Part shown: positions 7,738 through 62,393 of the stretch, piece after piece
Layout of the letters: each line of letters begins with the position of its first letter
Position numbering within the stretch: the first letter of the stretch is position 1
Source of the DNA: a bacterium
GTDB taxonomy: Bacteria > Bacillota_I > Bacilli_A > Izemoplasmatales > UBA1188
Direction of reading: 5' to 3'
DNA: 62,393 bases
NCBI GenBank assembly: GCA_017960565.1
Contig: JAGCYY010000004.1
Span: 1 to 62,393, forward strand
Position numbers and translations under genes: made by a program
Notes under the pieces: generated by a model
What the model was told of the DNA's origin: nothing
What the model saw: the letters and a program-made list of their open reading frames with translations, nothing else
Databases searched by the model: none

Positions 7738-7741
7738 TGTA

Positions 7742-9023: not shown

Positions 9024-9059
9024 AATATCAATAATTATATATTAAATGAGGTAAATTTT

Positions 9060-9633: not shown

Positions 9634-9639
9634 ATATTT

Positions 9640-10179
9640 ATGAATTACGAAATCGAACTAAAATACAAAGTAAATAAACTTCCTTTAAAGTTTGATAGAT
9701 GTCTTGAGATTGTGCAAACATATTTTAAACCTAAAAATAATTTAGATATTCTAATAGAATCCTTTGATAATTTAGATATCAATACTATAAACACTTTTAG
9801 ATTAAGAAAAATAATAGAAAATAATAATATTAAATACTATTTAACACTTAAGACAAAATCAGTAGGAATAAAAAGAAAAGAATATGAAAAAGAAATATCT
9901 ATAGATACATATAACACACTTATTCAAGAAAATATTGATTCTAAAGTTATTAAAAATAGATATATTAAGTATGAAAATAATTATATATTTGAATATGATG
10001 AATATTTAAATCTCAAAATTAATTTAATCACATTAGAAGTGGAATTAGAAAAAGAGAATAATCTTCAGGAAGATAAAACAAAAATAGAAGCAATCCTTAA
10101 AGAAAACAATATAGAGTATATAGATGTCACATTAGATCATCGATATAAAAACACTAATATAATCAAATATTTTGGATAA
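9640..10179 (+). CDS. CYTH-domain (triphosphate tunnel metalloenzyme) protein
   Basis: EIELKY (ExExK), RLRK, LTLK, EYE, KNRY, LEVE. Start re-assigned to ATG 9640 because ExExK is normally N-terminal. Confidence 0.8.
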   Translation: MNYEIELKYKVNKLPLKFDRCLEIVQTYFKPKNNLDILIESFDNLDINTINTFRLRKIIENNNIKYYLTLKTKSVGIKRKEYEKEISIDTYNTLIQENIDSKVIKNRYIKYENNYIFEYDEYLNLKINLITLEVELEKENNLQEDKTKIEAILKENNIEYIDVTLDHRYKNTNIIKYFG

Positions 10180-10191
10180 GGGGGAAGTAAG

Positions 10192-10941: not shown

Positions 10942-10974
10942 AAAGAGAAATTCGTTTTGAATTTCTCTTTTTTT
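10941..10974. terminator. Bidirectional terminator between convergent genes
   Basis: AAAAGAGAAATTC-GTTTT-GAATTTCTCTTTT. Confidence 0.8.
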
Positions 10975-12223
10975 ATTCTTTTCTTATTTTGCTTAGTGCA
11001 AGCATGATACTCATCTTGCCATATTCATATGTCAATCCACCTTGCATATACATCGTATATGGTGAGACAACTGGTGCATCACAAGAAAGTTCAATTGTGC
11101 TTCCTTGTGTAAAACATCCTGCAGCCATAACTTCATCAAATGGATATCCAGGCATAGGTGATGGCTCAATATAAGCTTTTGAATCGATTGGAGAAGATGC
11201 TTGGATTCCTCTTGCGAATTCAATCAAATTCTCTTTTGATCCAAGACATATTGTTTGAATTATGTCAGTCCTATAATCATTATATTTAGGCTCGACTCCT
11301 TGAAATCCCAACTTTTCCAGCATATATGCTGCAAAAATTTGAGTTTTTAAGGCATTTTTTACAGCACTTGGTGCCATAAATATCCCCTTAAGCACATTTA
11401 TGTTTGTGTTGAAGTTTGCCCCAAGTTCTTTACCAATTCCAGGCGCAGTAAGTCTTTCAGCGACTTCTTTTATTAAATCACATCTACCAGCTATATATCC
11501 TCCAGTTGATGCGATACCACCACCTAAGTTTTTCATAAGTGATCCTACGACTATGTCAGCTCCGACATCACCAGGTTCTATCTTTTCAACTAGCTCCCCG
11601 TAACAGTTGTCGACAAACACGATGACATTTTTATCAATTTTTCTAATCTCTTTGATAACTTTTTCGATTTTGGAAATCGCTAATGATTCTCTATTTGAAT
11701 AACCTCTAGATCTTTGTATCTCAAGAAGTTTAACATCACCTTTTTTTAATCTTTCGACAATTTTTTCATAATCAAAATCATTGTCAATCAAATCGATTTC
11801 TTCATATTTGATGCCACATGCCTTAAGAGATTGACTTGAATTTCCAATTATTCCAACCATCTCAAGCAAAGAATCATATGGCCTTCCACTAATAGATATC
11901 ATCGTATCCCCATATTTTAATAATGCTTGAAATGCAATATATAAAGCATTAGTACCGCTCATTATTTGTGGTCTTACAAGCGCATCTTCACATCCGAGAA
12001 CTTTTGCGAATATTTTTTCAATTTTATCTCTTCCTGTATCAAAATTACCATAACCATTGATGTCTGTGAAATCAGAATATTGAACGTTGTTTCGAATGAA
12101 TTCGCTGATTATTTTATCAGAATTATAGAATGCGATATCATCGATATTTTTAAAAATGTTTTCTAAATCTTTATCAGCTTTTATCGCTAATTTTTTAATT
12201 TCTTCACTAATATTCTCTATCAT
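10973..12223 (-). CDS. Methionine gamma-lyase family PLP enzyme (YnbB / aluminium-resistance family)
   Basis: ALVRPQIMSGT, IQRSRGY, FVDNCYGE, GSLMKNLGGG, QGSTIELSCDAP. Confidence 0.9.
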   Translation of the reverse strand: MIENISEEIKKLAIKADKDLENIFKNIDDIAFYNSDKIISEFIRNNVQYSDFTDINGYGNFDTGRDKIEKIFAKVLGCEDALVRPQIMSGTNALYIAFQALLKYGDTMISISGRPYDSLLEMVGIIGNSSQSLKACGIKYEEIDLIDNDFDYEKIVERLKKGDVKLLEIQRSRGYSNRESLAISKIEKVIKEIRKIDKNVIVFVDNCYGELVEKIEPGDVGADIVVGSLMKNLGGGIASTGGYIAGRCDLIKEVAERLTAPGIGKELGANFNTNINVLKGIFMAPSAVKNALKTQIFAAYMLEKLGFQGVEPKYNDYRTDIIQTICLGSKENLIEFARGIQASSPIDSKAYIEPSPMPGYPFDEVMAAGCFTQGSTIELSCDAPVVSPYTMYMQGGLTYEYGKMSIMLALSKIRKE

Positions 12224-12359
12224 TTTGATACATCCTCCAAATGATAGGATACTACATTTTTTAGATATTTTTTAAAAAATCTTTTTAAATACAAGAAAAA
12301 AGTATACAATTATAACGACCTATTATTAATCGATCTAGGTATATTAGGAGAACATCAAT

Positions 12360-13328
12360 ATGTGGCTTGTATATGCAATTGGCACCTTCATATTTTGGGG
12401 TACCGCAGACCTATTTTACAAAAGAGGAAATAACGAAAACGAAAAATACACCCACCTAAAAACATCTATATTTGTTGGACTAGTTATGGGCGTTACCGCA
12501 ATATTAACTATCATCATAAAAGGGATAGATTATGATTTTAGAAATATATTCGTTTATATGCCTGTATCTCTCATGTATATATTGTCAATGGTCATAGGTT
12601 ATTTTGGTTTAAAATATCTTGAATTGTCGGTATCATCACCAATTCAAAATTCCTCAGGCGCAGTGACATGTATTTTACTTATAATTGTCTTAAGAGAACT
12701 ACCTGATTATCTATCTTTAATCGCAGTTGGTTTAATCTCAATAGGTGTATTTCTTCTTGGCTTATTTGAAAAGAAGAAAGAAGAAGCCTTCGAGAAGGAA
12801 CAAAATAAAAAATATAAGATCGGTTTTATTGCCTTCTTATTTCCAATATTTTATTGTATAATAGACGCTCTTGGAACATTTTTTGATGGACTATATCTAG
12901 ATGATTATGCTACTACGCCATTATTAAATGTCACAGAAGAGACACTTGAAGATGTTGCGAACATATCATATGAACTGACATTTATGTTTATCGCAATTAT
13001 CCTTTTCATATTTGTACGTTTAATAAAGAAAGAAAGAATTGAAATTCCAAGACAAGGTGATAGATTATTAGCGGCTATATTTGAGACACTCGGTCAGCTT
13101 GTATATGTTTATGCATTATCTGGAAACGCTATCATTGCCGCTCCTGTTGTCGCATCATATTGTGTATTCTCTACGATACTCGCAGGAATCTTCCTAAAAG
13201 AAAAACTGACTATACCACAGTACATATCAGTTGGACTTGTAATAGCGGGAATAGTGCTTCTTGGGATTGTAGAAGGTATTGATCTCTCACTAGAGACAGA
13301 AACGATAATTCCCCTAATATTTCGATAA
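12360..13328 (+). CDS. EamA/DMT family transporter
   Basis: About 10 hydrophobic segments in two repeats; C-terminal IFLKEKLT motif. Confidence 0.8.
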   Translation: MWLVYAIGTFIFWGTADLFYKRGNNENEKYTHLKTSIFVGLVMGVTAILTIIIKGIDYDFRNIFVYMPVSLMYILSMVIGYFGLKYLELSVSSPIQNSSGAVTCILLIIVLRELPDYLSLIAVGLISIGVFLLGLFEKKKEEAFEKEQNKKYKIGFIAFLFPIFYCIIDALGTFFDGLYLDDYATTPLLNVTEETLEDVANISYELTFMFIAIILFIFVRLIKKERIEIPRQGDRLLAAIFETLGQLVYVYALSGNAIIAAPVVASYCVFSTILAGIFLKEKLTIPQYISVGLVIAGIVLLGIVEGIDLSLETETIIPLIFR

Positions 13329-13329
13329 A

Positions 13330-13357
13330 TAAAAACTACATTTAAATGTAGTTTTTA
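13330..13357. terminator. Perfect 28 bp palindrome, probable bidirectional terminator
   Basis: TAAAAACTACATTT/AAATGTAGTTTTTA between convergent stop codons. Confidence 0.75.
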
Positions 13358-13359
13358 AA

Positions 13360-14079
13360 TTATGCAAATTCACTCATAATTACTATATAACTTAATAGAT
13401 TCACAAGCGAATGTGTGAGATAAGATGCAAATATATTCTTGCCTGAATAATGATATATTAAAGCTAATATAAATCCTGGAATTGCATAGATTGGTAAATA
13501 CAAAAGTTCGATAAGGCTAAATTCTGCCATATGTAGAAGCCCAAATAAAATAGATGATGTAATCACAGGAAAGATAAAATGAGTATTAGGGAAAGCATCA
13601 AATATAAGCTTTCTAAATTCAAATTCTTCTAAAAATGGTGCAAGTATTACAGTTGTAAAGAATAATAATACATAATGGATCACCTTAGAAGAAGATTTAA
13701 AATAACCATTGATTATTTCTTGGTTTGTTGTTTCGCCAACTCCAAACCATTTATCGATTGCATCACCATAATACGAGATTCCACTTTCAACTAGATAAAA
13801 TACAAAAAAGGCAACTAAGGAGAATAATATGAATCCTCCAAAATTCTGTGTGACTTTCTTACCATCTTTTCCAATATGTGCATAATATATGGCGATCGCA
13901 ATCACGAGAGGGACAATCTTGCTTGAAAACCAGGTAATAGAAAAAAACATTTCATTGTTTTCAGTGACGATAGCTGCGGCAATGGCTGCAGCAATCCCTT
14001 CTACAACATATAATGCTAAAATTATCAAAATAGGAATAATATCAAATTTTTTCTCTGGTTTTTCATTAATGTATTCCAT
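13360..14079 (-). CDS. CPBP (Abi/CAAX) family intramembrane glutamic protease
   Basis: APFLEEFEFR (EExxxR), FGLLH, HSLVN motifs; multiple TM helices. Confidence 0.9.
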   Translation of the reverse strand: MEYINEKPEKKFDIIPILIILALYVVEGIAAAIAAAIVTENNEMFFSITWFSSKIVPLVIAIAIYYAHIGKDGKKVTQNFGGFILFSLVAFFVFYLVESGISYYGDAIDKWFGVGETTNQEIINGYFKSSSKVIHYVLLFFTTVILAPFLEEFEFRKLIFDAFPNTHFIFPVITSSILFGLLHMAEFSLIELLYLPIYAIPGFILALIYHYSGKNIFASYLTHSLVNLLSYIVIMSEFA

Positions 14080-14163
14080 ATTCCCCCCTTTAACCTAAAT
14101 TATACCATATGTATACAGTTTTATATTGTTAATTTCATAGTTAATCAAAAATTATAAATATTA

Positions 14164-14179
14164 TGATAGAATATTTATA
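14164..14179 (+). promoter_or_regulatory. Extended -10 promoter giving a probable leaderless rdgB transcript
   Basis: TG-A-TAGAAT (14164-14172), then 6 nt to ATG 14179; no SD. Confidence 0.55.
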
Positions 14180-14772
14180 TGAAGAAAGTTATTATCGCAA
14201 CTCACAATAAACATAAGCTAATAGAATTTAATCATATGTTGAAGCCTCTTGGATATGAGGCTATTTCATTATTTGATTTAAATTATTTTACTGAAATAGA
14301 AGAAACTGGTACAACTTTTGAAGAGAATTCATATATTAAAGCCCAAACAATTTATAATATTTTTCATATGCCAGTAATTGCTGATGATTCAGGCCTTTCA
14401 GTTGATGCATTAAATGGCCTTCCAGGCATCTATTCACATAGATATAGTGGCGAAAATGGAGACGATAAATCTAATAGAGAAAAATTAATTTTAGAATTAA
14501 AAAAAATACCTGAATCTCACTTTAATGCCAAATTCATTTGTGCAATCACCTATATTGATGATGCTAAAACAATTAAGACATTAGGCATACTCGATGGCGA
14601 AATCATTTTAGAAGAAAGAGGAAATAGTGGTTTTGGTTATGATCCTATCTTCTATTTAAAAGATCTAAATAAGACGGTTGCCGAACTGGGCGAAGAAAAG
14701 AAAAATGAAATATCGCATAGACATATCGCTCTTCTTAAACTTACAGAGGAATTAAAATCATGCAATTCTTGA
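14179..14772 (+). CDS. rdgB: Non-canonical purine NTP pyrophosphatase (RdgB/HAM1)
   Basis: ATHNKHK, ADDSGL, GFGYDPIF, SHR. Confidence 0.95.
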   Translation: MKKVIIATHNKHKLIEFNHMLKPLGYEAISLFDLNYFTEIEETGTTFEENSYIKAQTIYNIFHMPVIADDSGLSVDALNGLPGIYSHRYSGENGDDKSNREKLILELKKIPESHFNAKFICAITYIDDAKTIKTLGILDGEIILEERGNSGFGYDPIFYLKDLNKTVAELGEEKKNEISHRHIALLKLTEELKSCNS

Positions 14773-40688: not shown

Positions 40689-42221
40689 ATGAACGAAAAA
40701 AGGAAAGCATTAAAACTTGTTGCAATTATATCATCTACAGTTTTTATGCTGCTTTTTTTAATTTTTTTATTCACTTATGATTTAACGCCAAAATCAAAAT
40801 ATGAAATCACAGAATCAAAAGAAGAAATCACAAACGAACTTAGAGATTATTTAAATGAAGCTCTTCTAAAGGCATCTATTTTAAATATCCTAAAAATAAA
40901 TATTGATAGTGAGTATGTTGATAAAGCATTCTATCTTCTAGTAAAAGATGATAATGATGATGTCATCTATAGGACAAATAACTATATAATTAAAGGATTT
41001 AATTTTTCCATCAAAAATAATCATATCGATCTAAATCTTTATATTACATACAAGAACTTAATTAAATACGAAAGTAAAGTAAGGATTAGATTAGAATTTA
41101 GTGAATCAGAATCATCTTATTCATTCGCTTTAAAGTCGATAAAAATTGGTGGAATAATCATACCGCCTCTCGTCGTTGAAAGCTTTTTAAACAATAGAGA
41201 ACAAGCATCACTCGGAAATGCTATCACTGGTCTATTAGTCAACATTCCAATAGGAACATATGATAAAGACAGCCTCACATTCACTATTTTAAAAAGTGAA
41301 TTGATAGATGAAATTAAAAAAGGCGCTATCAGCGAAGAATTTTTTAAAGGTAATAAAGCTCTATCATCATCTGCCGCAACGTTCCTTTCTATTCTCTACC
41401 CAAACAAGCTTTTAGATTTAGAACTTGAAGGAGATATAACGCTATTGCTAAATTATTCTAAACTAGTGAATGTTGATAGAAATATCGATAGAATCAGCTA
41501 CACAGATCCTCTAGATTTAAGATATGATATTATATTTAAAGAATTTTTGGGTTATGATTCATTTGAATTATCTAAAAAAGACACAAGAAAAATAATTATG
41601 AGTGAACCATTTAAAGTAGATCCTCTAGATTATAATGGTTTTATAAAATTTGAGAATGTTGATTATAGTTTTAATGGTGATACTTTAACCCTTTCAATAT
41701 TTTATAATGTATTTAACAATACATCGATAAACGACTATATCTTCATTAAAGACAAAGATAGATATAAACTTGATAGAATTTATATCGGAAGAGATGATAA
41801 TGAGAAACAAACTGATTATTTGACTGTAGAATCGACAGAAAATAAACAAAATTTCTTAAATCTCTTAAACGATTTAAATATCACATCCAATCTCATCTCT
41901 TTATCTTTAACGGAAGATTCTATTCTAGCGCCTCTCATGCTTAAAAATATAGATGTGATGAGAGAAGAAAACACATTCACCATATCTTATAATTCAAATC
42001 AAGATATAATAAACACAATAAAAGAAGCAATTCTAAGTGATGATTTCAATTCAACATTGAGTACTGATTTAAAACAAAAATTAAATCTTGAGTCAATTGA
42101 TTATTTATATGAATCTATTGAGAATCTATCAATAGAAAATAAGATATCTTATTTTAATTTTATTAAAATGTATTTCAAAGATGACACTCTAGTGTATAAT
42201 TATATAAATGAAAATTATTAA
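40689..42221 (+). CDS. Hypothetical membrane-anchored protein
   Basis: Single N-terminal hydrophobic helix; no family recognised. Confidence 0.6.
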   Translation: MNEKRKALKLVAIISSTVFMLLFLIFLFTYDLTPKSKYEITESKEEITNELRDYLNEALLKASILNILKINIDSEYVDKAFYLLVKDDNDDVIYRTNNYIIKGFNFSIKNNHIDLNLYITYKNLIKYESKVRIRLEFSESESSYSFALKSIKIGGIIIPPLVVESFLNNREQASLGNAITGLLVNIPIGTYDKDSLTFTILKSELIDEIKKGAISEEFFKGNKALSSSAATFLSILYPNKLLDLELEGDITLLLNYSKLVNVDRNIDRISYTDPLDLRYDIIFKEFLGYDSFELSKKDTRKIIMSEPFKVDPLDYNGFIKFENVDYSFNGDTLTLSIFYNVFNNTSINDYIFIKDKDRYKLDRIYIGRDDNEKQTDYLTVESTENKQNFLNLLNDLNITSNLISLSLTEDSILAPLMLKNIDVMREENTFTISYNSNQDIINTIKEAILSDDFNSTLSTDLKQKLNLESIDYLYESIENLSIENKISYFNFIKMYFKDDTLVYNYINENY

Positions 42222-50915: not shown

Positions 50916-52025
50916 ATGTCGTTATTCCTTGCGAATGCGTGGGACATTGATAGAACGAATGGTTTTGTCAATTGGTTCTATAGTTCTGAATTTGTCTTTG
51001 GCATTGCCAAATATGCAGTATGTATTTTAATAGGCATCATCTTAGCTTATTTCATCTGCACCAAAGAAGGCAAAAAACTAGGCATTGATCCTGACGATGT
51101 TTTAATATGCGTAACATTTGTCGTGCCTCTATCAATTCTTGGCGCAAGAATTTGGTATCTATTTGGTGATGGAATACCTACTTTTAAAGATTATAATTCT
51201 TCATATGGTTTCTTTACTGCAGTCCTCTACACAATCCTATATACTTTTGGTTATGATCCAGTATCTCATTATTTTGGAGGTCTTGCTGGTCTTGCGATTC
51301 ATGGTGGAGTATTGGTTGCGGCTATTATGTCTATAATTTGTTCAAGATGGAAAAAATGGAAAATATCTATCGTTGGTGACATGGTTGCGCCTGGATTATT
51401 GATCGGCCAAATATGTGGTAGATGGGGTAACTTTTTCAACCAAGAAGCCCATGGTATTGTGATTGGTGGTTGGGAATTAAATGAATCTACTGGTGAACTT
51501 ATTCCAAATCTCACAGTAGAAGAACAATACCTAACAATGACACAAAAATTCCATATTCCAAAATTTATCTCTAATTTTATGTATATGAATGAAGGTGGTA
51601 GATCATATTATTATGGAATTGTCGATGGTGTTCAATCATATGGAAGACTTGAAGGATCAAACTTTTTCCATCCAACATTCCTTTATGAATCTTTATTAAA
51701 TCTGCTTGGTTTAATTATCTATTTCGTTCTTAGAAGATTTAAAAAGACAAGAAGTGGTTTCTTCGCTGGATTCTATCTAATTTGGTATGGCATTGTGAGA
51801 TTCTTTATTGAAATCATCAGAACCGACTCATTATATCTTCCTGGTACAACACTCAAATCAGCTCAAGTCACATCTATTGTGATGATTCTAATAGGCATAT
51901 TGATTCTTGTATATATTTATTTCATCAAAAAGACTGATTATTATACTGAAATCATTGAAAGAGTTAAACGTGAAAATGAAATTTCAATGAACAAAGATGA
52001 TACTCAAGTGATTGATGTAAAGTAG
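50916..52025 (+). CDS. lgt: Prolipoprotein diacylglyceryl transferase
   Basis: GARIWY, GLAIHGG, GRWGNFFNQE, HPTFLYES, RFFIE..R.D. Confidence 0.93.
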   Translation: MSLFLANAWDIDRTNGFVNWFYSSEFVFGIAKYAVCILIGIILAYFICTKEGKKLGIDPDDVLICVTFVVPLSILGARIWYLFGDGIPTFKDYNSSYGFFTAVLYTILYTFGYDPVSHYFGGLAGLAIHGGVLVAAIMSIICSRWKKWKISIVGDMVAPGLLIGQICGRWGNFFNQEAHGIVIGGWELNESTGELIPNLTVEEQYLTMTQKFHIPKFISNFMYMNEGGRSYYYGIVDGVQSYGRLEGSNFFHPTFLYESLLNLLGLIIYFVLRRFKKTRSGFFAGFYLIWYGIVRFFIEIIRTDSLYLPGTTLKSAQVTSIVMILIGILILVYIYFIKKTDYYTEIIERVKRENEISMNKDDTQVIDVK

Positions 52026-52983: not shown

Positions 52984-53355
52984 ATGACTAAAAAAGATAA
53001 AACTAAAATTATCATAACCTCAATTCTATTAGCTATTATGGTTGTGGTAGCTCTTGTCTCTCTCATCACTTCAATTGCTTTGTTTGATGTTACAAGTAAA
53101 GAAATTGAGGAAGCAGAAGAAGCAATAGGTTTAATATTTGTGATAATAGTTCTCCTAGCACCACTAATCATTTGTGCTGCTGGACAATTTGTACCTGGAA
53201 TAATAAATATTATTTTATTCATCAATCTTAAAAAACATACTGAAGTTCCTAAAATTAAAACTTATGCCTTAATTGGTGAAATTTCATCAATAGTATTAAC
53301 TTTATTTCCAATTATTCTCTCAATTATCACAATTTTACTGCTTCAAACACAATAA
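52984..53355 (+). CDS. Hypothetical small integral membrane protein
   Basis: Three hydrophobic segments; SD AAGGAG. Confidence 0.65.
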   Translation: MTKKDKTKIIITSILLAIMVVVALVSLITSIALFDVTSKEIEEAEEAIGLIFVIIVLLAPLIICAAGQFVPGIINIILFINLKKHTEVPKIKTYALIGEISSIVLTLFPIILSIITILLLQTQ

Positions 53356-53440
53356 ATTTACAATTTATTACTATCTAAAATAATTATTCTTGAAAAAAAG
53401 CACTAATTACTTTAGAATATATAAAGACGAGGTAATATAT

Positions 53441-54049
53441 ATGGCAAAATACGCACAAGGATATGAGAGAAAAAAATCCGATACAAGAAATCTAATCTTT
53501 TTAGCAGCTGCAATAGTACTTACAATCGCTGTAGCTATCGCAATAGTTGCAATAGTAAATAATGTAAGGGATTATAGTACTCATAATCTAACAGTTGCTC
53601 CTTATACAGAATACGAAATTCCAACAAGCTCATACTCTGCATCAGGCCTTAGAAATGTCGCAAGGTCTGAAAAATCAGATTACAATTATTTTATTTATGT
53701 TTATTCAGCAAACAATGATAATTCCAATTCTAAAGTTATGGAATATATCGACAAATATATTGCATCTAAGGATGAAACTGATAATTCTAAGAAACTTACA
53801 ACTCCAATGTATATCTTAGATTACGACAAATTTGATAATGCTGAACAAGATTCTGAATCTGATGAAGCTAAATACAAAGATGAACTTGCAGGTGCTTTTG
53901 GCCTCGAAGTTATCCCTGGATATCTCATTTTCATGAAAAATGGTGAAGTTACTTCAACACAAAATCAAATTGTCACAAAAGATGTAAATTCTGTAATCCA
54001 AAAATTAATCGATGGTGGAGCACAAGAAATCTTTGATTTCACAAAATAA
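53441..54049 (+). CDS. Membrane-anchored protein, possible thioredoxin-like fold without CxxC
   Basis: SD GAGGT favours ATG 53441; one TM helix; YFIYVYS..., MYILDY, VIPGYLIFMKNGEV pattern. Confidence 0.5.
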   Translation: MAKYAQGYERKKSDTRNLIFLAAAIVLTIAVAIAIVAIVNNVRDYSTHNLTVAPYTEYEIPTSSYSASGLRNVARSEKSDYNYFIYVYSANNDNSNSKVMEYIDKYIASKDETDNSKKLTTPMYILDYDKFDNAEQDSESDEAKYKDELAGAFGLEVIPGYLIFMKNGEVTSTQNQIVTKDVNSVIQKLIDGGAQEIFDFTK

Positions 54050-56376: not shown

Positions 56377-56467
56377 GGAGCAGTACTCAAGTGGTTGAAG
56401 AGGCGCGCTTGCTAAGCGTGTAGATCGGGAAACCGGTGCGGGAGTTCAAACCTCCCCTGCTCCGCCA
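56377..56467 (+). tRNA. tRNA-Ser (anticodon GCT)
   Basis: Acceptor stem GGAGCAG/CTGCTCC plus G-CCA; anticodon arm CGCGC-TTGCTAA-GCGTG; long variable arm; T arm GGGAG-TTCAAAC-CTCCC. Confidence 0.97.
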
Positions 56468-56478
56468 ATTAGACGACT

Positions 56479-56557
56479 ATCACTAGTACTTTGAAGTGAA
56501 CTGAAAAAGTTGGACCAACAACTTTGGAGGTTCACTTCAGATACTGGTGATTTTTTA
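56479..56557. repeat. Long interrupted inverted repeat after the tRNA, with an IS3/IS150-end-like core
   Basis: Nested stems ATCACTAGTA/TACTGGTGAT, TGAAGTGAAC/GTTCACTTCA (56492-56501 and 56530-56539), AAAGTTG/CAACTTT, then a T run. Confidence 0.7.
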
Positions 56558-57013
56558 TTTTTGTTATAGATTTTCAATTTCATAAAACTTGTTTTTTTGA
56601 GTACATTACTTATTTATGATTATTTAAAACAATATAAAAATAGCGACAATTATTGACACATAGATTATGTTATAATCTATTAGATAAAAGATTTGGGAGA
56701 ATAAACTATGAACGATAGAGACAAAATAAGGCTCATCCAAATAGAAGAAGAGGTTAGTAAAAACCAGAAAAAATGACAACAATAATTAAATATTTTGAAA
56801 TTAATGTAATAAGGTATTGATCTCTCTTCACAAAAATAGTCAGTTGAAATTGTGAAGTGGTTGGTATTATTAATTAAATGATATGAGTAAAGACATGGAT
56901 CTATGTATCATATTAAATGCCTAGATTCTTTTATTTGAATGGAGTAAGTTGGTTAATGAAAAAAAACTATTTTCACTTTTTAAATATAAATTTATAAGAA
57001 AGAAGGTTGTAAT

Positions 57014-60000
57014 ATGAAAAGAACTTTAAAAAGAGTTTTAAGTTTGTTTATGCTGATAACTTTAGGCTTTTGTTGCCTAGTTGGATGCTCTTCTAAAAAT
57101 GATGCTAGCTTAGTTGCAACTGATGATGTTCATGGTAATAACGAACTAGTGGAAGTGTTAAGCACAAGCTCAAAAAAACCTGATGGCCAATTCAACAAAG
57201 GGGTTGTATTGGTTAAAACAAATTGTTTTGATGCTTCTATGTTTGGTGAACTTAAATATGAAAGTGTTGAACAGTTATATAAAAACAGCTTATGGTACGA
57301 AGTAGAACTTAGTGATAAAGATGCTACTGAGGATGCTGTATCATATCTTTTAGAATTAGACACTTTTGATAAAGTCGATTATGACTATATAATGGGTTCT
57401 GATGGAACTATTGAATCAATTGATGTTTCTGCAAATCCATATAGTACTGAACAAGGATATTTAGATGCTCAGGGTATTTTTGATGGCTGGGGTTATGCTA
57501 AAGCCGAGAATAAAACAGTTGGTGGAAGCCCTGATGTTGTTGTTGCAATTATTGATACAGGTGTTGACTATAATCATCTTGATTTAAGAAATAACATCTG
57601 GACAAATAGTGGTGAAATTCCAAACAATGGCGTTGATGATGACGGCAACGGATATGTTGATGACTATTATGGGTGGGATTGCGTTGGAAATGATAATGAT
57701 CCAATGGATGATAACGGACACGGAACACATGTTGCTGGTATAGTTGCTGCAGAAAACAATGCCTTTGGTACAGTTGGAGTAGCATTCAATTGCAAGGTAA
57801 TGTGTATCAAAGCCGGTAATTCAACTGGATATTTTAATAACTCTGACATTGCCGAAGCAATACAATATGCTTATATGAACGGTGCGTCAGTAATCAATAT
57901 GTCTTTTGGTGGATCAAATATTTCTACTGCCGTTAAAGATGCGCTTGAAGATGCATATAATCAATGTGTTTTAGTTGCAGCTGCAGGTAATGATAGTTTA
58001 TGCAACAATTTAGCGCATTACCCTTATCATCCTGTAGGAGTTTCATATCCAGCAGCCCTTCCGTATGTATTAGGCGTTATGAGTACAAATTCAACTGGAA
58101 CTGTAATTTCTGCTTTTTCAAATTACGATGACACTCCTTATGATAGCGTTGAATACGAAGTGTATGCTTGTGGAGAACAAGTTCCTTCGACTTGGCCAAA
58201 TAATAAAGTTGCTAGATTGTCTGGTACATCTATGGCGTGCCCTGTTGTTTCTGGTATAGCAGCATTATTAAGAAGCAATTATTCTGATAGAGAAGTTTAT
58301 AGCAATAAGTTTATTCAATCTCAAATAGTTAATACTGGCTCAATTAATCCTTTTGGTGATAGTTGTCATAGTATTGCTAACGTTTACGAAGCTTTAACTA
58401 AAATGCCAAAACCAAGTGTTTCATTATATGATTATTATATTTTTGATAGCGATGAATTTAGTATTAAGAATAATAATAATGGAGTAATAGATGCTGGCGA
58501 GACAATACGCTTAGCTATTGAGTTGAGAAATAGAGGAGGGGTAGCATCAAATGTTGTTGCAACAATAGGCACAACAAGAAACAACGATCCTTCGCTTACA
58601 GATCCTTACTTTGCTATTCAAAAAGGCAGCATTAATTTGCCTAATATTGGTACTTATTCTGTGATTGATTGTGATTTGATTTATGATGATGGCGGAAATC
58701 CAGTAAACTCAGTTTTATATTTCGAATTTGTTGTAGCAGATAATTGCCCCAATGATTATTTAGCAAATTTTAATGTCAATTTTACATATAAAAATGGTAT
58801 GGATGAACAAGATGTTTCTAGTTATTCTAGTAAAGGTGTTGCACAACTGACTATATATAGTGGTAGAGTGCTTCCAACTGTTTTGACCTCAGATACAACT
58901 TTGACTCCAGACACATTATATATTTTAAAACAAAACATGATTATTAATGAAGGTGTAACCTTAACTATTCAACCAGGAGTTACTATTCAATATTATGCTA
59001 GTTCGCATGAAAAGTATACTACTGTTCCTGAATATTTAAGAATTGTTAATAACGGAACAATCGTTTGTGAAGGAACAGAAGATAATCACATTGTATTTAA
59101 ACCTTCTGAACTTTATAGTGGTTATTGCATAGATTTTAACGGAAATGCTAATTTTAAATATTGCGAGTTTTATAATATGTGTTTTGATCAAAATAATACC
59201 TGGTCAAGGCAAAGAATAGGTACAATTTCACTTGACCATTGCTATGTTTCTGACAATTCACAGATGGCTGGATATGGTTTCTTTTGTAATACATTTGGCG
59301 AAGTAAAAAATACAGAGTTTTATTCAATAAACAGGTATTCGATAGAAGCAGAAAGTTTTGAAAACTGTTTGTTCCGTGAATGGGCGGTTGGAGATAATTA
59401 TAGTTGGGGCGGAGATAGATACAGAGGTTTGAAAGCTCGTAGATTTGAAGGCAATGTATTCTATGATACATACCCATATTGGTTAGAAAATGGTCAACCA
59501 GGAGTTGGTCATTATATAAATATTTGCGATTCGGAAAGTGATACAGTTTTTGATAATAATGCATTATTATTTAATACATCAATAACAGATATTAAGTATT
59601 CATTTAGAATTCAAACCACATCAATGTACTCTTCAAAACCAGTTTTGTATTTGAAAAATAATTATATTACAATACCGATGGAAGTAATAAACCAGAATAC
59701 ACTAGATTATACAAACGATGGAGTTAGTTCGATTTTAGATTTCGATACCAATTCATCTAATTATTCATTTGATAATTCATTTCCTTTTGTAAGTAGTATT
59801 GAAATAAAAGATGAAGATGGGAACCAAGTTAATAAAGTAGGAAGTGGAGAATACACAATTGGTCTAACATTCCTAACACCAATGAATATTGAAAAAGAAT
59901 TGTCGGTTTATTATGGATCTGTGTATCCATATTCTGATTATACAGTAATGGGTTCGTTCAAAAATGAATACCTTTGGGAAGGAACAATCAATGTCAAAGC

Positions 60001-60916
60001 ATTCTATGAAGGTGGACAACAATATTTAACAATTAATGGTAGTGCAAATGTAAATGATTCTTATAAAGCGATAAAACACGATAGAACAAATTCGTTTGTT
60101 ATTGACTTGAATAATGCTCTTTCAATGAACCTTCAAGCATATGCTTCTAATACAGGAATCAATCTTGAATGGACACAAGATGACTATGATACGTTGATGG
60201 GTTATAACGTATATCGTTCTACTGAAAAAGATGGTTATTTTACAAAACTAAATAGTGCAGTAATCCCTGCTGGTGAAAATACATTTGTTGATGAGAATGC
60301 TGAACCAGGTGTTACATACTGGTATACATTCACAGTTGTTTTTAGTGATATGACTGAATCGGCTCCTGCTGGAAAAGTTTCTTGTACGGCTGCTGATACG
60401 ATTGCCCCATCTATTTATCACACTCCTGTTAATCAAGGATATTTAAGCAATAATTTGGTTATTTCTTGTACAGCTAGTGATAATATCGGAATTGCAAGTG
60501 TCACTCTTTACTACAAAACTAAAGGTGCTGAAACTTGGAAGACTCTATCAATGTCAAAACAAAATGATAGATATAGTGCAACTGTATTTGGATCTGATTT
60601 GTCATTAGAAGGTTTAGAATATTACATCGTTGCAAGTGATGGATATAATACAATCAATAAAGGAACTGCTGAAAATCCTTATTCAGTTATCGTAAAAGAT
60701 GCATCTAGTATTTCTAGATTAGGTGATGTTGATGGTGATGGTGTTATAACTACTAAAGATGCACTTATGATAATGCAATCAATTAATGGCGATTTATTAT
60801 TGACTGATGATCAATTTAAACGTGCAGACTTAAATAATGATGGTGTTTTATCAAGCGTAGAAGCTTTAAGAATTTTACAATATATAAATGGTAATGTTAG
60901 CACTTTAGAAATGTAA
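57014..60916 (+). CDS. S8 (subtilisin-like) serine peptidase, predicted lipoprotein, with beta-rich stalk, Fn3-like domain and C-terminal dockerin
   Basis: Lipobox LVGC; VAIIDTG, HGTHVAG, AAAGN, GTSMACP; Fn3-like LEW..GYNVYRS..FVD..PGVTYWY; duplicated Ca-binding dockerin loops GDVDGDGVITTKDAL and ADLNNDGVLSSVEAL (from 60722). Confidence 0.9.
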   Translation: MKRTLKRVLSLFMLITLGFCCLVGCSSKNDASLVATDDVHGNNELVEVLSTSSKKPDGQFNKGVVLVKTNCFDASMFGELKYESVEQLYKNSLWYEVELSDKDATEDAVSYLLELDTFDKVDYDYIMGSDGTIESIDVSANPYSTEQGYLDAQGIFDGWGYAKAENKTVGGSPDVVVAIIDTGVDYNHLDLRNNIWTNSGEIPNNGVDDDGNGYVDDYYGWDCVGNDNDPMDDNGHGTHVAGIVAAENNAFGTVGVAFNCKVMCIKAGNSTGYFNNSDIAEAIQYAYMNGASVINMSFGGSNISTAVKDALEDAYNQCVLVAAAGNDSLCNNLAHYPYHPVGVSYPAALPYVLGVMSTNSTGTVISAFSNYDDTPYDSVEYEVYACGEQVPSTWPNNKVARLSGTSMACPVVSGIAALLRSNYSDREVYSNKFIQSQIVNTGSINPFGDSCHSIANVYEALTKMPKPSVSLYDYYIFDSDEFSIKNNNNGVIDAGETIRLAIELRNRGGVASNVVATIGTTRNNDPSLTDPYFAIQKGSINLPNIGTYSVIDCDLIYDDGGNPVNSVLYFEFVVADNCPNDYLANFNVNFTYKNGMDEQDVSSYSSKGVAQLTIYSGRVLPTVLTSDTTLTPDTLYILKQNMIINEGVTLTIQPGVTIQYYASSHEKYTTVPEYLRIVNNGTIVCEGTEDNHIVFKPSELYSGYCIDFNGNANFKYCEFYNMCFDQNNTWSRQRIGTISLDHCYVSDNSQMAGYGFFCNTFGEVKNTEFYSINRYSIEAESFENCLFREWAVGDNYSWGGDRYRGLKARRFEGNVFYDTYPYWLENGQPGVGHYINICDSESDTVFDNNALLFNTSITDIKYSFRIQTTSMYSSKPVLYLKNNYITIPMEVINQNTLDYTNDGVSSILDFDTNSSNYSFDNSFPFVSSIEIKDEDGNQVNKVGSGEYTIGLTFLTPMNIEKELSVYYGSVYPYSDYTVMGSFKNEYLWEGTINVKAFYEGGQQYLTINGSANVNDSYKAIKHDRTNSFVIDLNNALSMNLQAYASNTGINLEWTQDDYDTLMGYNVYRSTEKDGYFTKLNSAVIPAGENTFVDENAEPGVTYWYTFTVVFSDMTESAPAGKVSCTAADTIAPSIYHTPVNQGYLSNNLVISCTASDNIGIASVTLYYKTKGAETWKTLSMSKQNDRYSATVFGSDLSLEGLEYYIVASDGYNTINKGTAENPYSVIVKDASSISRLGDVDGDGVITTKDALMIMQSINGDLLLTDDQFKRADLNNDGVLSSVEALRILQYINGNVSTLEM

Positions 60917-60931
60917 TGAGGAGCTGATATT

Positions 60932-62393
60932 ATGAAAAGGAAAATACTTAAAGTAATATGTGCTTTCTGTATTTCCCTTCTAAGCGTAATTGTTTGTTTG
61001 ATTACTTTTGGCGGGGTTACTGCTCATGCAGAATCGCAAAACAAAGTGACCATTGAAAGTAATCAGGACGTGACGAAAGGAAATACTTATTATGGTTATG
61101 TTTACATTGAAAGTTTAGAGAACATAGCTTCTTTGAATGTGAGTATTCATTATAATTCAGATGTTATCATCATTACTAGTACCTATAACCAGGCGTCTTG
61201 CGCTTTATATGATAGTTCAAATATAAATGAAACACTTAGCTATTCGTATATTTTTAATGCGGGTGGTCAAAACAATAAAACAAATCTATTCTATTTCATG
61301 TATACTGTTTCTGAAAGTGCAGAATCATCAAGTTCATGGTTCGATGTAGTTATTGATGATGCATATAATTCTAGCTTAGAAAGCGTAAATGTTTATGGTT
61401 CAAGATACTATTTTGATATAAAAGATAGCCAACCAATAACTAAGACTTGTTACATTTATGGAACATCATCAGTAAGTACAAAAATAGAAGAAGAATTTGA
61501 AATATCATATCGTTTTGACTCTTATGAAATAGCTTCTGGATCCATTGAAATCCAATATGATCGTGATTTGTTCGAATTTATTTCATTAACTCAATTGAGT
61601 TTTTTAACTAGTAAAATGGTAGATGTAAATTCATCTATTGCTGGATCAGTATTAGTATCATTCTTAGGCACAGAATATACGTATAACACTGATTTCCTAA
61701 GATTAAAGTTTAAAACTATCGGAAACGAAAATACTAATTCAACAATTAAACTAACAACTTCAGGTTTTTACGACTTAGAATTAAATAGTGTTTCTTGTAG
61801 CGGAACATCTACTAGCGTAATGATTTCTTATGATAGTAATTATGACGATTCTTTATCAAAGATGTTTATAACATCAAATTATGATTTGACTAACAATCAA
61901 GTAAAAGTTTTAGTTGGTTTATCTGCTAATTCAAATTTAGGAGCTGGTGACTTTACTCTTTCTTGGAATAAGAATTATTATGAGTTTGCTTCACTTGAAA
62001 AGAAGTTCACTCCTTCCTTCTTTAATGTCAATGATAAATTGACAGACGATGGAAAGTTGAAGTTTTCGATTATTTCATTAACTGATATTACTAGTGCAAC
62101 GGAAGTGATAGAAGTTACACTTAATGTTATAACTCAACATGATGAAACTATTTCAGCATTTGAAATTACTGGTAGTGGTCTTTCAGATTCATTAACTAAT
62201 TCAATTTATTTAAATTTTGTTAACTGTAATCAAACTATTCCTGGTAATTGTACATATGATGAATGGACGGTAACAAAAGAACCAACATGTACAGAAAAAG
62301 GCGAAGAACATCGAGTTTGTAGTGTCTGTGGTCATGAAGAGACTAGAGAAGTGGCTGCAAAAGGACATTCTTGGAGAGAAGAATGGACAATTG
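60932..62393 (+). CDS. Secreted scaffoldin-like protein with three tandem cohesin-like domains, then a Cys/His repeat; truncated by the window end
   Basis: SD GAGGAG; frame open to the window end. Signal peptide MKRKILK...VTAHA|ES. Three ~135 aa beta-rich units with IASLNVSIHYNSDVI / IASGSIEIQYDRDLF / LGAGDFTLSWNKNYY and LFYFMYTV / FLRLKFKT / VIEVTLNV. Then EWTVTKEPTCTEKGEEHRVCSVCG..GH. Confidence 0.75.
   Translation, partial: MKRKILKVICAFCISLLSVIVCLITFGGVTAHAESQNKVTIESNQDVTKGNTYYGYVYIESLENIASLNVSIHYNSDVIIITSTYNQASCALYDSSNINETLSYSYIFNAGGQNNKTNLFYFMYTVSESAESSSSWFDVVIDDAYNSSLESVNVYGSRYYFDIKDSQPITKTCYIYGTSSVSTKIEEEFEISYRFDSYEIASGSIEIQYDRDLFEFISLTQLSFLTSKMVDVNSSIAGSVLVSFLGTEYTYNTDFLRLKFKTIGNENTNSTIKLTTSGFYDLELNSVSCSGTSTSVMISYDSNYDDSLSKMFITSNYDLTNNQVKVLVGLSANSNLGAGDFTLSWNKNYYEFASLEKKFTPSFFNVNDKLTDDGKLKFSIISLTDITSATEVIEVTLNVITQHDETISAFEITGSGLSDSLTNSIYLNFVNCNQTIPGNCTYDEWTVTKEPTCTEKGEEHRVCSVCGHEETREVAAKGHSWREEWTI

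What the first reader, a model, noticed from the sequence alone, without database searches (positions are those of the whole stretch)
57014..62393. Cellulosome-like protease-scaffold pair: dockerin-bearing lipoprotein subtilase next to a multi-cohesin protein
Seen: a 1300 aa S8 protease with an intact D/H/N/S catalytic set, a lipobox and a C-terminal duplicated dockerin motif. 15 bp downstream is a co-oriented secreted ORF, missing from the ORF track, with three tandem cohesin-like domains. Established: dockerin-cohesin pairs assemble cellulosomes, normally from carbohydrate-active enzymes in walled Clostridia. Inference: these genes encode a surface complex that clusters up to three or more proteases, or other dockerin proteins, in an apparently wall-less bacterium. 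No glycoside hydrolase is recognisable in the visible part.
Basis: partly seen in the sequence, partly recalled or inferred. Interest (0 to 1): 0.85.

Follow-up and report, generated by a model that had tools for sequence, protein, structure and literature searches.

The report
Protease-plus-scaffold docking pair, wall-less gut bacterium
A gut bacterium that has no cell wall carries a two-gene cassette, a lipid-anchored protease ending in a dockerin plug next to a protein with three cohesin sockets, and the same cassette turns out to be common in walled gut Clostridia, so it is a real and tidy but not unprecedented surface-display system.

Summary
ORF1 (57014-60916, 1300 aa) is an S8 subtilase with a lipobox, an intact D/H/N/S set and a C-terminal Dockerin_1 domain above Pfam's cut-off. 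Fifteen bases downstream, ORF2 (60932-62393, cut by the contig end) has a signal peptide and three domains that all fold as cohesins (Z 14.5-16.0 to solved cohesins).

They are the only dockerin and the only cohesin gene found in a 1.3 Mb genome (92.6% complete). No PBP, SEDS protein or Mur ligase was found there, nor a PBP in 156 of 158 genomes of its order.

The pairing is conserved: in 11 of 11 related loci the protease gene sits directly upstream of the scaffold gene. A diverged version occurs in three other genomes of the order.

The family is not special to wall-less cells. Nine of those 11 loci are from Clostridia, and three of these genomes, when checked, had PBPs. Dockerin-bearing proteases that bind anchoring cohesins are already described in cellulosome and amylosome producers.

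Binding, stoichiometry and the scaffold's anchor remain inferred. The contig ends in a collapsed 141-nt tandem repeat.

Verdict: a self-contained, non-cellulosomal cohesin-dockerin protease-display cassette, a new variant of a known kind. Interest is moderate.

The parts
56377..56467 (+). tRNA-Ser(gct). The tex gene followed by this tRNA is kept in genus relatives, and the DNA after it differs between species, so it marks the left edge of a variable region that holds the cassette.
   Evidence: ARAGORN. The same tRNA follows tex in G002, G003, G004, G005 and G009 (5 of 6 loci scanned), with different genes after it. Loose ends of metagenome contigs lie at 56492-56565.
57014..60916 (+). ORF1, 1300 aa: lipoprotein S8 subtilase with a C-terminal dockerin.
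   Evidence: All 13 of 13 orthologues carry both Peptidase_S8 and Dockerin_1.
57014..57088 (+). Signal peptide with lipobox L-V-G-C (residues 1-25, Cys25).
   Evidence: Read from the translation. By my reading of the first blocks, a Cys stands at or next to this place in 10 of the 13 orthologues. Lgt (2 copies) and LspA are present in the genome.
57191..57418 (+). Conserved N-terminal block (residues ~60-135), proposed propeptide. This is an inference.
   Evidence: The block is conserved in the 13-sequence alignment. No Pfam propeptide family was reported. There is only one weak Fervidolysin_NPro-like hit, in 1 of 13 members, E 0.013.
57533..58339 (+). Peptidase_S8 catalytic domain (residues 174-442) with D181, H236, N326 and S406.
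   Evidence: Pfam E 2.7e-52. These columns are invariant. The best solved relative is deseasin MCP-01 (3vv3_A), E 6e-42.
58340..60718 (+). About 790 aa between protease and dockerin with no confident family. It is conserved at both ends and variable in the middle.
   Evidence: Only weak hints: Big_7 E 0.062 and NosD E 0.025 in 1 of 13 members. The Atlas gave no usable hit.
60719..60889 (+). Dockerin (residues 1236-1292): two near-symmetric Ca-loop and helix repeats.
   Evidence: Pfam Dockerin_1 37.7 bits against 22.9; 44.4 bits in the genome scan. Repeats are aligned.
60917..60931 (+). 15-bp spacer with a GGAG ribosome-binding site. No terminator-like site was reported between the genes.
60932..62393 (+). 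ORF2, a scaffold protein. At least 487 aa are visible and the 3' end is missing.
   Evidence: No continuation was found in the other 34 contigs.
60932..61030 (+). Signal peptide (residues 1-33, ...TAHA|ES).
   Evidence: Read from the translation. No predictor was run.
61028..61435 (+). Cohesin 1 (residues 33-168).
   Evidence: VIA-align Z 16.0, rmsd 2.2, 131 aligned to 6kgc_A, and further cohesins down to Z 15.1. No Pfam Cohesin hit when scanned alone.
61436..61840 (+). Cohesin 2 (residues 169-303).
   Evidence: Pfam Cohesin 30.5 bits against 24.1. Z 14.5 to 5lxv_C.
61841..62266 (+). Cohesin 3 (residues 304-445). It carries the invariant LGAGDF motif.
   Evidence: Model pLDDT 96.2. Ranks 1-17 are all cohesins, best 2xdh_A at Z 15.1. 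hhalign to D2 gives 90.6%. No Pfam hit when scanned alone.
62253..62393 (+). First copy of a 141-nt (47-aa) Cys-rich CxxC repeat. It is tandemly repeated and collapsed in assemblies, which explains the contig end.
   Evidence: The joint '62393 goes back to 62253' appears in 3 of 4 runs. Depth in the last bin is 288 against 42, 57.9 against 11.1, 17.5 against about 5, and 12.9 against 5.5. The tail alone hits the Ribosomal_L32p zinc-ribbon model at 22.9 bits. Homologues carry many such repeats.

Best explanation
A self-contained, non-cellulosomal cohesin-dockerin cassette that displays a subtilase on the cell surface.

Proposed mechanism:
1. ORF1 is exported and lipid-anchored through Cys25 as a pro-enzyme.
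2. Its C-terminal dockerin, two Ca2+-binding repeats, plugs into the cohesins of ORF2, the product of the next gene in the same operon.
3. ORF2 offers three cohesins on a stalk of Cys-rich 47-aa repeats. Full-length relatives end in a hydrophobic helix with a basic tail, or in a dockerin. The scaffold is therefore most likely held in the membrane and needs no peptidoglycan, sortase or SLH anchor.
4. Up to three protease molecules could then sit on one stalk.
5. If the conserved N-terminal block is a propeptide that is cut off on activation, the dockerin is what keeps the mature enzyme on the cell.
6. The likely use is extracellular proteolysis of dietary or host protein by a small-genome gut bacterium.

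Shown: the domain identities, the operon layout, the exclusivity of the pair, the conservation of the pairing, and the absence of wall genes.

Inferred: binding, stoichiometry, membrane anchoring of this particular scaffold, propeptide release, and the physiological role.
For: Domains:.

Exclusivity:
- One dockerin and one cohesin gene were found in the whole genome, with no paralogue of either protein.
- The same holds in the genomes behind L048, L050 and L058: one dockerin match each, and cohesin matches only on the same contig within about 1.3 kb of it. That makes 4 of the 6 genomes examined, counting G000.
- The other two have 20 and 64 dockerin matches.

Conserved pairing:
- In 11 of 11 related loci the protease orthologue lies directly upstream of the scaffold gene on the same strand. 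In L058 it is split into three ORFs, and in L049 it is cut by the contig end.
- These two genes are the only families shared by the loci. The other shared clusters are antisense shadow ORFs.
- A diverged version is found in G022, G026 and G068: protease 44-47% identical and scaffold 23-26% identical, E 5e-16 to 6e-20. The gene order there is scaffold, then a 231-238 aa lipoprotein, then the protease.

Parallel divergence:
- The two clades differ at loop positions 10-11 of both dockerin repeats: T-K and S-V (S-M, S-S or S-K in others) against V-L and A-W.
- Their cohesins have diverged in step.

Anchor: relatives P0001, P0002 and P0010 end in a hydrophobic stretch plus a K/R tail, and P0009 ends in a dockerin.

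Lipoprotein machinery is present and no sortase was found.

Host:
- No PBP, no SEDS, and only FolC among Mur-type ligases. In the order, 2 of 158 genomes have a PBP.
- The cassette shares the contig with TsaD, LigA, UvrA, Lgt, WhiA and Tex.
- Its GC is 0.324 against 0.306 for the rest of the window. Clostridial copies are 0.34-0.50 and track their own flanks.
- Its depth tracks the flank in four runs.

Precedent for the mechanism (passages seen):
- The C. thermocellum S8 double-dockerin protein binds the cell-bound ScaD (PMC12484212).
- An R. bromii peptidase dockerin binds Sca2 (PMC4611034).
- The R. flavefaciens peptidase dockerin binds ScaE (PMC5301203).
Against: - No experiment or accepted model shows that this dockerin binds these cohesins.
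- The protease already has a lipid anchor, so a second tether looks redundant unless the N-terminal block is removed. No propeptide family was reported for any of the 13 orthologues, apart from one weak hit in 1 of 13.
- The C-terminus of ORF2 is not assembled, so its anchor is unseen here. The closest full-length relative (L048, 1199 aa) ends without a clear long hydrophobic helix.
- Pfam alone recognises only one of the three domains.
- The cassette was not found in the 8 other species of the genus: cohesin 0 of 8, dockerin 0 of 8, protease 0 of 8. It is therefore dispensable and probably acquired.
- In the public contigs laid on the window, no listed piece bridges 56512-56521, the point just after the tRNA. 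The physical link of the cassette to the housekeeping part rests on the window's own assembly, on matching depth and on GC.
Confidence: 0.68

Rival explanations
1. The two genes are neighbours, but the dockerin does not dock on these cohesins. The cohesin-fold domains would act as adhesin or spacer modules. Alternatively, either module binds partners on other cells, for example scaffolds of neighbouring Clostridia. The dockerin might be only a Ca2+-stabilised tail.
For: Binding is untested. Cohesin-like jelly rolls resemble adhesin and pilin domains: MSCRAMM and pilin chains score Z 9-11 just below the cohesins. The review reports that protease dockerins bind scaffoldins of different species (PMC12484212 passages). 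Two of the six genomes examined carry many other dockerins.
Against: In four of the six genomes examined the pair is the only dockerin and the only cohesin gene, so neither has another partner in its own cell. Adjacency holds in 11 of 11 loci and survives a change of gene order in the diverged clade. All three domains rank solved cohesins first, by 3-4 Z units over the adhesins.
Confidence: 0.15
2. The pair is enzyme and substrate. The subtilase would mature, trim or release the neighbouring repeat protein or its cargo, and the adjacency reflects processing rather than display.
For: Subtilases next to their substrates are common. The review passages suggest that cellulosomal peptidases may process cellulosome components (PMC12484212).
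Against: This does not explain why a dockerin and three cohesins are conserved on the two partners in 13 of 13 proteases and all scaffolds examined. It is compatible with docking rather than an alternative to it.
Confidence: 0.1
3. It is an assembly or binning artefact. The cassette belongs to a walled Clostridium and was joined to the wall-less genome's contig at the conserved tRNA-Ser gene.
For: Listed public contigs break at 56512-56521, and several loose ends lie at 56492-56565 in all four runs. Most relatives of the cassette are clostridial.
Against: Depth of the cassette equals that of the housekeeping flank in each of four runs: about 42 against 41-47, 6-11 against 8.6-9.9, 4.7-6.4 against 4.8-8.1, and 3.3-6.1 against 4.4-5.2. 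Its GC of 0.324 fits the host's 0.306, not most clostridial copies at 0.38-0.50. Its nearest relative sits on a 75.6-kb contig of another genome in which no PBP was found, and the two group together in the tree with support 87/90. A diverged cassette occurs in a single-contig genome of the same order, G026.
Confidence: 0.04

Closest known systems
Clostridium thermocellum S8 protease with a double dockerin (dDoc_0689) that binds the cell-bound scaffoldin ScaD (as described in review PMC12484212; passages seen)
   Same: An S8 subtilase carries a C-terminal dockerin and is proposed to be anchored at the cell surface through a cohesin rather than to degrade polysaccharide.
   Different: That protein has two tandem dockerins and belongs to a full cellulosome with many dockerin enzymes and wall-anchored scaffoldins. 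Here there is one dockerin, a dedicated three-cohesin partner encoded next door, no other dockerin in the genome, a lipobox on the protease, and a host without wall genes.
Ruminococcus bromii amylosome: dockerin-bearing peptidases and Sca2 (PMC4611034; passages seen)
   Same: A gut Firmicute in which the Sca2 cohesin bound a dockerin from a peptidase. The authors read this as a general surface-anchoring mechanism.
   Different: Sca2 is proposed there to attach by a sortase-mediated mechanism and also binds amylases. The system has over 20 dockerin proteins. No dedicated protease-scaffold operon is described in the passages I saw.
Ruminococcus flavefaciens cysteine peptidase X-dockerin bound to ScaE (PMC5301203; passages seen)
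   Same: A peptidase is tethered to the cell by a dockerin, and a symmetric dockerin gives a dual binding mode.
   Different: That case has a papain-like peptidase, an X-dockerin dyad, a ScaE scaffoldin described (in PMC4611034) as sortase-attached, and a large cellulosome around it.
Non-cellulosomal cohesins, e.g. Archaeoglobus fulgidus cohesin 2xdh (entry title). The survey of such modules in the three domains of life (Peer et al. 2009) is recalled, not seen.
   Same: Cohesin and dockerin modules occur in organisms with no cellulosome and in small numbers per genome. 2xdh is the best structural match of domain 3 (Z 15.1) and ties for best with domain 1 (Z 15.9).
   Different: A fixed operon of an S8-dockerin gene plus a triple-cohesin gene, spread over Clostridia and wall-less Bacilli, was not named in any passage or listing I saw.
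Lactococcal cell-envelope proteinase PrtP with its lipoprotein maturase PrtM
   Same: A large multi-domain S8 protease is held on the surface of a Gram-positive-type cell to feed an auxotroph with peptides. A small lipoprotein gene accompanies it, as in the wall-less relatives of this cassette.
   Different: PrtP is fixed to peptidoglycan through a sortase signal. Here the tether would be dockerin-cohesin to a membrane protein. The accompanying lipoprotein gave no Pfam family and was not found in this genome.

Membership tests
Cohesin (PF00963) | Match to the family HMM above the gathering score | tested here: met
   The whole protein scores 34.6 bits against 24.1 and domain 2 alone scores 30.5 bits. 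Domains 1 and 3 alone give no Cohesin hit.
Cohesin (PF00963) | Beta jelly-roll fold superimposable on solved cohesins, for each of the three domains | tested here: met
   D1 gives Z 16.0, rmsd 2.2, 131 aligned (6kgc_A). D2 gives Z 14.5, rmsd 2.1, 131 aligned (5lxv_C). D3 gives Z 15.1, rmsd 3.3, 129 aligned (2xdh_A), with ranks 1-17 all cohesins. The models have pLDDT 95.0 and 96.2.
Cohesin (PF00963) | Binds a dockerin | not testable with these tools
   This needs pull-down or ITC. Genomic coupling is the only support.
Dockerin (PF00404) | Match to the family HMM above the gathering score | tested here: met
   37.7 bits against 22.9 over profile positions 1-57 of 57. All 13 of 13 orthologues match.
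Dockerin (PF00404) | Two repeated segments, each a 12-residue Ca2+-binding loop (D/N at positions 1, 3 and 5; D/E at 12) followed by a helix. The motif definition is recalled. | tested here: met
   The loops are DVDGDGVITTKD followed by ALMIMQSING, and DLNNDGVLSSVE followed by ALRILQYING. Weak EF-hand family hits cover the same residues.
Subtilase S8 | HMM match and the catalytic Asp, His and Ser with the oxyanion Asn | tested here: met
   Pfam E 2.7e-52. D181, H236, N326 and S406 are invariant in 13 sequences.
Bacterial lipoprotein | Lipobox with invariant Cys after a signal peptide, and Lgt plus LspA in the genome | tested here: met
   L-V-G-C25. Lgt is present in 2 copies and LspA in 1. Lipidation itself is not testable here.
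Cellulosome in the strict sense | Several dockerin-bearing carbohydrate-active enzymes that assemble on the scaffoldin | tested here: not met
   Only one dockerin was found in the genome, and it is on a protease. No GH or CBM family was reported in ORF1 or in the visible part of ORF2. The genome is 92.6% complete.
Wall-less (peptidoglycan-free) bacterium | No PBP transpeptidase, no SEDS polymerase, no MurC-F ligases | tested here: met
   PF00905 gives 0 matches and PF01098 gives 0 matches. PF08245 gives 1 match, which is FolC at 353 bits against 162.65. In the order, 2 of 158 genomes have a PBP. MurA, MurB, MurG and MraY were not searched.

The most novel reading that the evidence does not exclude
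The S8-dockerin plus triple-cohesin pair is a self-sufficient, horizontally mobile 'protease display cassette', the smallest working cohesin-dockerin system.

- It has moved among walled gut Clostridia and wall-less Bacilli, and a decayed copy sits in a methanogen MAG.
- It inserts here beside tRNA-Ser.
- In wall-less hosts it has gained a dedicated ~230-aa lipoprotein as a third part.
- It would give these auxotrophic cells a stalked, trivalent protease for harvesting host or dietary protein without any cell wall to hang it on.
Probability: 0.35. Interest if true: 0.65.

Novelty: new variant of a known kind. Interest (0 to 1): 0.5.

Why it matters
Cohesin-dockerin assembly is mostly studied as a way to build polysaccharide-degrading machines on walled Clostridia. 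This cassette differs in four ways:
- The same plug and socket form a closed two-gene system whose only cargo is a protease.
- In four of the six genomes examined it is the sole cohesin-dockerin pair.
- It also occurs in a bacterial order that lacks peptidoglycan, where the usual sortase or SLH anchoring cannot apply.
- It offers a compact natural one-plug, three-socket system for binding and stoichiometry studies, and possibly for surface display in wall-less chassis.

It also points to surface proteolysis as a nutritional trait of poorly known small-genome gut Bacilli. It does not overturn anything, because dockerin-borne proteases and non-cellulosomal cohesins are already known.

Tried and rejected
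Complex prediction. The three-cohesin region, the dockerin (residues 1225-1300) and 2 Ca were sent. The result was 'no answer', score 0.15 against a mark of 0.32, and the controls were not run. I do not use this for or against binding.

Foldseek on the three-domain model. It gave only whole-chain matches to multi-domain Ig-like proteins (integrins, antigen I/II) at TM 0.2-0.3. I judged these uninformative. I replaced them with VIA-align on the whole model and with a separate fold of domain 3.

The search for related loci with the 72-row alignment A1 failed for lack of a conserved stretch. I repeated it with the 13-row alignment A2.

Rest of ORF2:
- phmmer against six-frame ORFs of the genome found no paralogue.
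- A scan of contig-edge ORFs found no candidate.
- tblastn with six full-length relatives hit only C24.

Third gene. The ~230-aa lipoprotein of the wall-less relatives gave no tblastn hit in the own genome: none at E <= 0.01, and only chance-level matches (E >= 0.11). It was not detected in the nine clostridial loci or in L058 at E <= 1e-3.

Propeptide. No Pfam propeptide family was reported for ORF1. The idea stays an inference.

Middle region of ORF1. The Atlas gave no usable hit.

Expression. No RNA holder is listed among the sequencing runs.

Junction after the tRNA. No listed Logan piece bridges 56512-56521 (109 pieces were not shown).

Direction of transfer. The tree has a midpoint root only. 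The window plus L048 are sister to the Clostridia rather than nested within them, so I name no donor.

Hit counts (7678, 2395 and 285) are inflated by the Cys-rich repeat. By my reading of the table of the best 150:
- 103 have a best stretch of 400 or more query residues.
- 8 cover part of the cohesin region.
- 39 match only the tail.

Literature:
- 'dockerin' + 'RF39' returned 0 papers.
- 'dockerin' + 'cohesin' + 'Mollicutes' returned 5 papers, and with 'Tenericutes' 13 papers, 10 of them listed.
- By title and abstract start, none concerns a cohesin-dockerin system of a wall-less bacterium.
- In PMC6487960 the only Tenericutes mention is a table row with ND for cohesins and dockerins.
- These are listings and passages only. 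Subscription papers and supplements were not seen.

Full report
WHAT IS THERE

The window is a whole contig (C24) of a 1,316,461-base, 35-contig genome with about 31% GC, rated 92.6% complete.

ORF1 runs 57014-60916 on the + strand and encodes 1300 aa. ORF2 starts 15 bases later at 60932 and is still open at the last base of the contig, with 487 aa visible. The spacer carries GGAG 8 nt before the ATG. No terminator-like site was reported between the genes. I read the two as one operon.

Upstream lie housekeeping genes: TsaD, a class I Glu/Gln tRNA synthetase, a UvrD-type helicase, LigA, UvrA, Lgt, WhiA and a 728-aa ORF that I take to be Tex. The Tex name is my reading of the translation; no family search was run on it. 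After these comes tRNA-Ser(gct) at 56377-56467.

THE PROTEASE

Pfam places Peptidase_S8 at residues 174-442 (E 2.7e-52). It places Dockerin_1 at residues 1236-1292, covering the whole 57-position model, at 37.7 bits against a cut-off of 22.9.

In an alignment of 13 orthologues D181, H236, N326 and S406 are invariant. All 13 of 13 carry both families. The nearest solved catalytic domain is deseasin MCP-01 (3vv3_A, E 6e-42).

The N-terminus reads ...L22-V23-G24-C25, a lipobox. Most orthologues have a Cys at or next to this place. The genome has two Lgt copies and one LspA.

The dockerin has two near-symmetric repeats: DVDGDGVITTKD followed by ALMIMQSING, and DLNNDGVLSSVE followed by ALRILQYING.

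The roughly 790 residues between protease and dockerin have no confident family.

THE SCAFFOLD

After a signal peptide, ORF2 has three domains of about 135 aa each.

- Pfam sees Cohesin above cut-off for the protein (34.6 bits) but, domain by domain, only in domain 2.
- An AlphaFold2 model of residues 30-445, built on 72 aligned relatives, has pLDDT 95.0.
- Against 48,161 solved chains, domain 1 is matched best by cohesins: 6kgc_A at Z 16.0, rmsd 2.2, 131 aligned; 4dh2_C at 15.9; 2xdh_A at 15.9.
- Domain 2 is matched best by 5lxv_C at Z 14.5.
- Domain 3 was crowded out of that list, so I folded it alone (pLDDT 96.2). Its first 17 matches are all cohesins (Z 15.1 to 11.7), and adhesin domains begin at rank 18 (Z 11.3).
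- Profile-profile comparison ties the domains together: D1-D2 94.5%, D2-D3 90.6%, D1-D3 40.6%.
- The three are about equally conserved among 71 relatives, with mean identity 38.8, 42.7 and 40.8%.

The 'three cohesins' claim therefore stands.

THE MISSING END

The last 141 nt (62253-62393) encode a 47-aa Cys-rich unit that on its own touches the Ribosomal_L32p zinc-ribbon model (22.9 bits).

I laid public contigs from four gut-metagenome runs on the window. In three of the four there is a joint that goes from 62393 back to 62253. Depth in the last bin is several-fold that of the gene: 288 against 42, 57.9 against 11.1, 17.5 against about 5, and 12.9 against 5.5.

The contig therefore ends inside a collapsed tandem repeat. 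Depth from contigs is not a copy number, so I say only 'several copies'.

No continuation exists elsewhere in the assembly. Full-length relatives continue with many such repeats. They end either in a hydrophobic stretch plus a K/R tail (P0001, P0002, P0010) or in a dockerin (P0009; also L055 9998-11485).

IS THE HOST WALL-LESS?

- In the genome I found no PBP transpeptidase and no SEDS protein.
- There is one Mur-ligase-type gene, and it is FolC (353 bits against 162.65).
- No sortase was found.
- Across the order, only 2 of 158 genomes have a PBP, and the order includes single-contig genomes.
- MurA, MurB, MurG and MraY were not searched.

The claim is well supported for a 92.6%-complete genome.

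ARE THE TWO GENES A PAIR?

1. They are the only dockerin and the only cohesin gene found in the genome, and neither has a paralogue.

2. A search of one genome per species found 11 loci encoding relatives of ORF2 at 39-55% identity.
   - In 11 of 11 the protease orthologue sits directly upstream on the same strand. It is whole in 9, cut by a contig end in L049, and split into three ORFs in L058.
   - No other gene family is shared by these loci.

3. In the genomes behind L048, L050 and L058 the cassette is again the only dockerin. The cohesin matches lie only on the same contig within about 1.3 kb of that dockerin. The genomes behind L053 and L057 have 20 and 64 dockerin matches.

4. Within the window's own order, cohesins occur in 11 of 158 genomes and dockerins in 16 of 158. 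By my comparison of the two lists, 8 genomes have both.
   - Three of them (G022, G026, G068) carry a diverged cassette. The protease is 44-47% identical and larger, with extra Big_2, RCC1 and Big_5 domains in two of the three. The scaffold is 23-26% identical, with three cohesins, MBG domains and a C-terminal hydrophobic and basic tail.
   - The order there is scaffold, a 231-238 aa lipoprotein, then the protease.
   - The pairing thus survives a rearrangement.

5. The two clades differ at loop positions 10-11 of both dockerin repeats: T-K and S-V-type against V-L and A-W. Their cohesins have diverged strongly as well. This fits partner-specific recognition, but it rests on two clades only.

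WHERE ELSE IS IT, AND HOW DID IT GET HERE?

Of the 11 loci, one is titled a Bacilli MAG (L048). Nine are titled as Clostridia (Oscillospiraceae, Acutalibacteraceae, Ca. Fimenecus, Eubacteriales). One is titled a Methanomassiliicoccales MAG.

The L048 genome gave no PBP match. The three clostridial genomes I checked have 3-5 PBPs each.

In a library of 1.84 billion representatives, 103 of the best 150 hits span the whole three-cohesin region (my count). The family is therefore large.

The cassette was not found in the 8 other species of the genus. All 8 of those genomes have tex. Of the six relatives' loci scanned, five also have tRNA-Ser(gct) after it, with different genes following.

Public contigs show loose ends at 56492-56565 in all four runs.

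A protease tree groups the window with L048 (support 87/90) as sister to the eight Clostridia. The diverged clade of the order sits far away (100/100).

Each copy's GC follows its host.

I read this as a cassette that sits in a variable spot beside a tRNA gene and has been exchanged between lineages long enough ago to take on host composition. The tree does not give a donor.

HOW IT MOST LIKELY WORKS

The pro-enzyme is exported and lipidated. The dockerin binds the cohesins of the co-expressed scaffold. The scaffold stands on a repeat stalk and is held in the membrane.

The dual tether needs explaining. The conserved block at residues ~60-135 looks like a subtilase propeptide. If it is cut off on activation, the mature enzyme loses its lipid anchor and only the dockerin keeps it on the cell. 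This step is an inference, since no propeptide family was reported.

The role I favour is surface proteolysis for peptide supply in a reduced gut bacterium. That is also an inference.

COMPARISON WITH WHAT IS KNOWN

Dockerin-borne proteases tethered to surface cohesins are in print (passages seen):
- The C. thermocellum S8 double-dockerin protein binds ScaD (PMC12484212).
- An R. bromii peptidase dockerin binds Sca2 (PMC4611034).
- The R. flavefaciens cysteine peptidase dockerin binds ScaE (PMC5301203).

Non-cellulosomal cohesins are known too, for example 2xdh (title). The 2009 survey of such modules is recalled, not seen.

What differs here:
- a closed two-gene system with a protease as the only cargo;
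- a lipobox on the enzyme;
- a scaffold that relatives suggest is membrane-anchored;
- presence in a peptidoglycan-free order.

It fails the strict cellulosome test, because no dockerin-bearing carbohydrate enzyme was found in the genome. My literature searches found nothing on cohesin-dockerin systems in wall-less bacteria (listings only).

VERDICT

It is a new variant of a known kind. Interest is 0.5: a clean, testable minimal system and a modest surprise in its host range, but not a new principle.

Noticed in passing
L048:13588-14274; L044:10587-11300; L045:6022-6714; L046:4452-5165; L047:~3084-3374: In all five scaffold loci from genomes in which no PBP was found, a ~230-aa lipoprotein gene follows the scaffold gene directly, with overlapping or abutting stop and start. 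The copies are 21-37% identical to each other, and the two checked have no Pfam family. It was not detected in the nine clostridial loci or in L058, and not in the window's own genome, where it could lie beyond the contig end. It may be a third part of the cassette in wall-less hosts.
   Followed up: partly
window 62253-62393: A 141-nt unit encoding a 47-aa CxxC...CxxC-type repeat is tandemly repeated and collapsed in assemblies. The unit alone reaches the Ribosomal_L32p zinc-ribbon model. By my count, 39 of the best 150 library hits match only this tail, many in proteins of 1000-6600 aa with 10-43 matched stretches. It is a very common extracellular Cys-rich repeat of gut Firmicutes, and Pfam reported no dedicated family for it.
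   Followed up: partly
L058 (titled Methanomassiliicoccales archaeon RumEn M2, contig of 83,050 b), 6039-14463: The same cassette sits in a contig assigned to a methanogenic archaeon. The protease is split into three ORFs (6039-7637, 7759-8442, 8776-9912) and the scaffold into two. Cassette GC is 0.469 against 0.489 for the flanks. It holds the only dockerin match of that genome. This is either a decaying inter-domain transfer or a mis-binned contig.
   Followed up: partly
window 56468-57013: A long imperfect inverted repeat followed by a T-run lies just after the tRNA, at about 56481-56561. I saw it by eye, and the terminator scan did not report it. About 450 bp of AT-rich spacer follows before ORF1. 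Metagenome contigs diverge exactly here.
   Followed up: no
P0009 (835 aa); L055:9998-11485 (496 aa): Some members of the triple-cohesin family end in a dockerin of their own instead of a membrane tail. They would be adaptor scaffolds that plug into a further cohesin.
   Followed up: no
G026:C1:953043-1008665; G001:C7:17907-18071: A single-contig genome of the order has a ~55-kb region with several cohesin and dockerin genes. One dockerin lies in an open frame of 5939 aa, and one 1323-aa frame holds both a cohesin and a dockerin. The one other genus of the window's family has a dockerin in an open frame of 8707 aa.
   Followed up: no
window 58663: In all four runs one contig fits the window from 58663 onward, preceded by the same unlike sequence. 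This suggests a co-occurring variant of the protease gene with a different N-terminal half (table 7).
   Followed up: no
window 40689-42221, 52984-53355, 53390-54049: Three ORFs (510, 123 and 219 aa) among the housekeeping genes have no Pfam family at E <= 1e-5.
   Followed up: no
window 50916-52025 and G000:C12:4541-5254: The genome has two Lgt (prolipoprotein diacylglyceryl transferase) genes, one of them 5 kb upstream of the lipoprotein protease.
   Followed up: no
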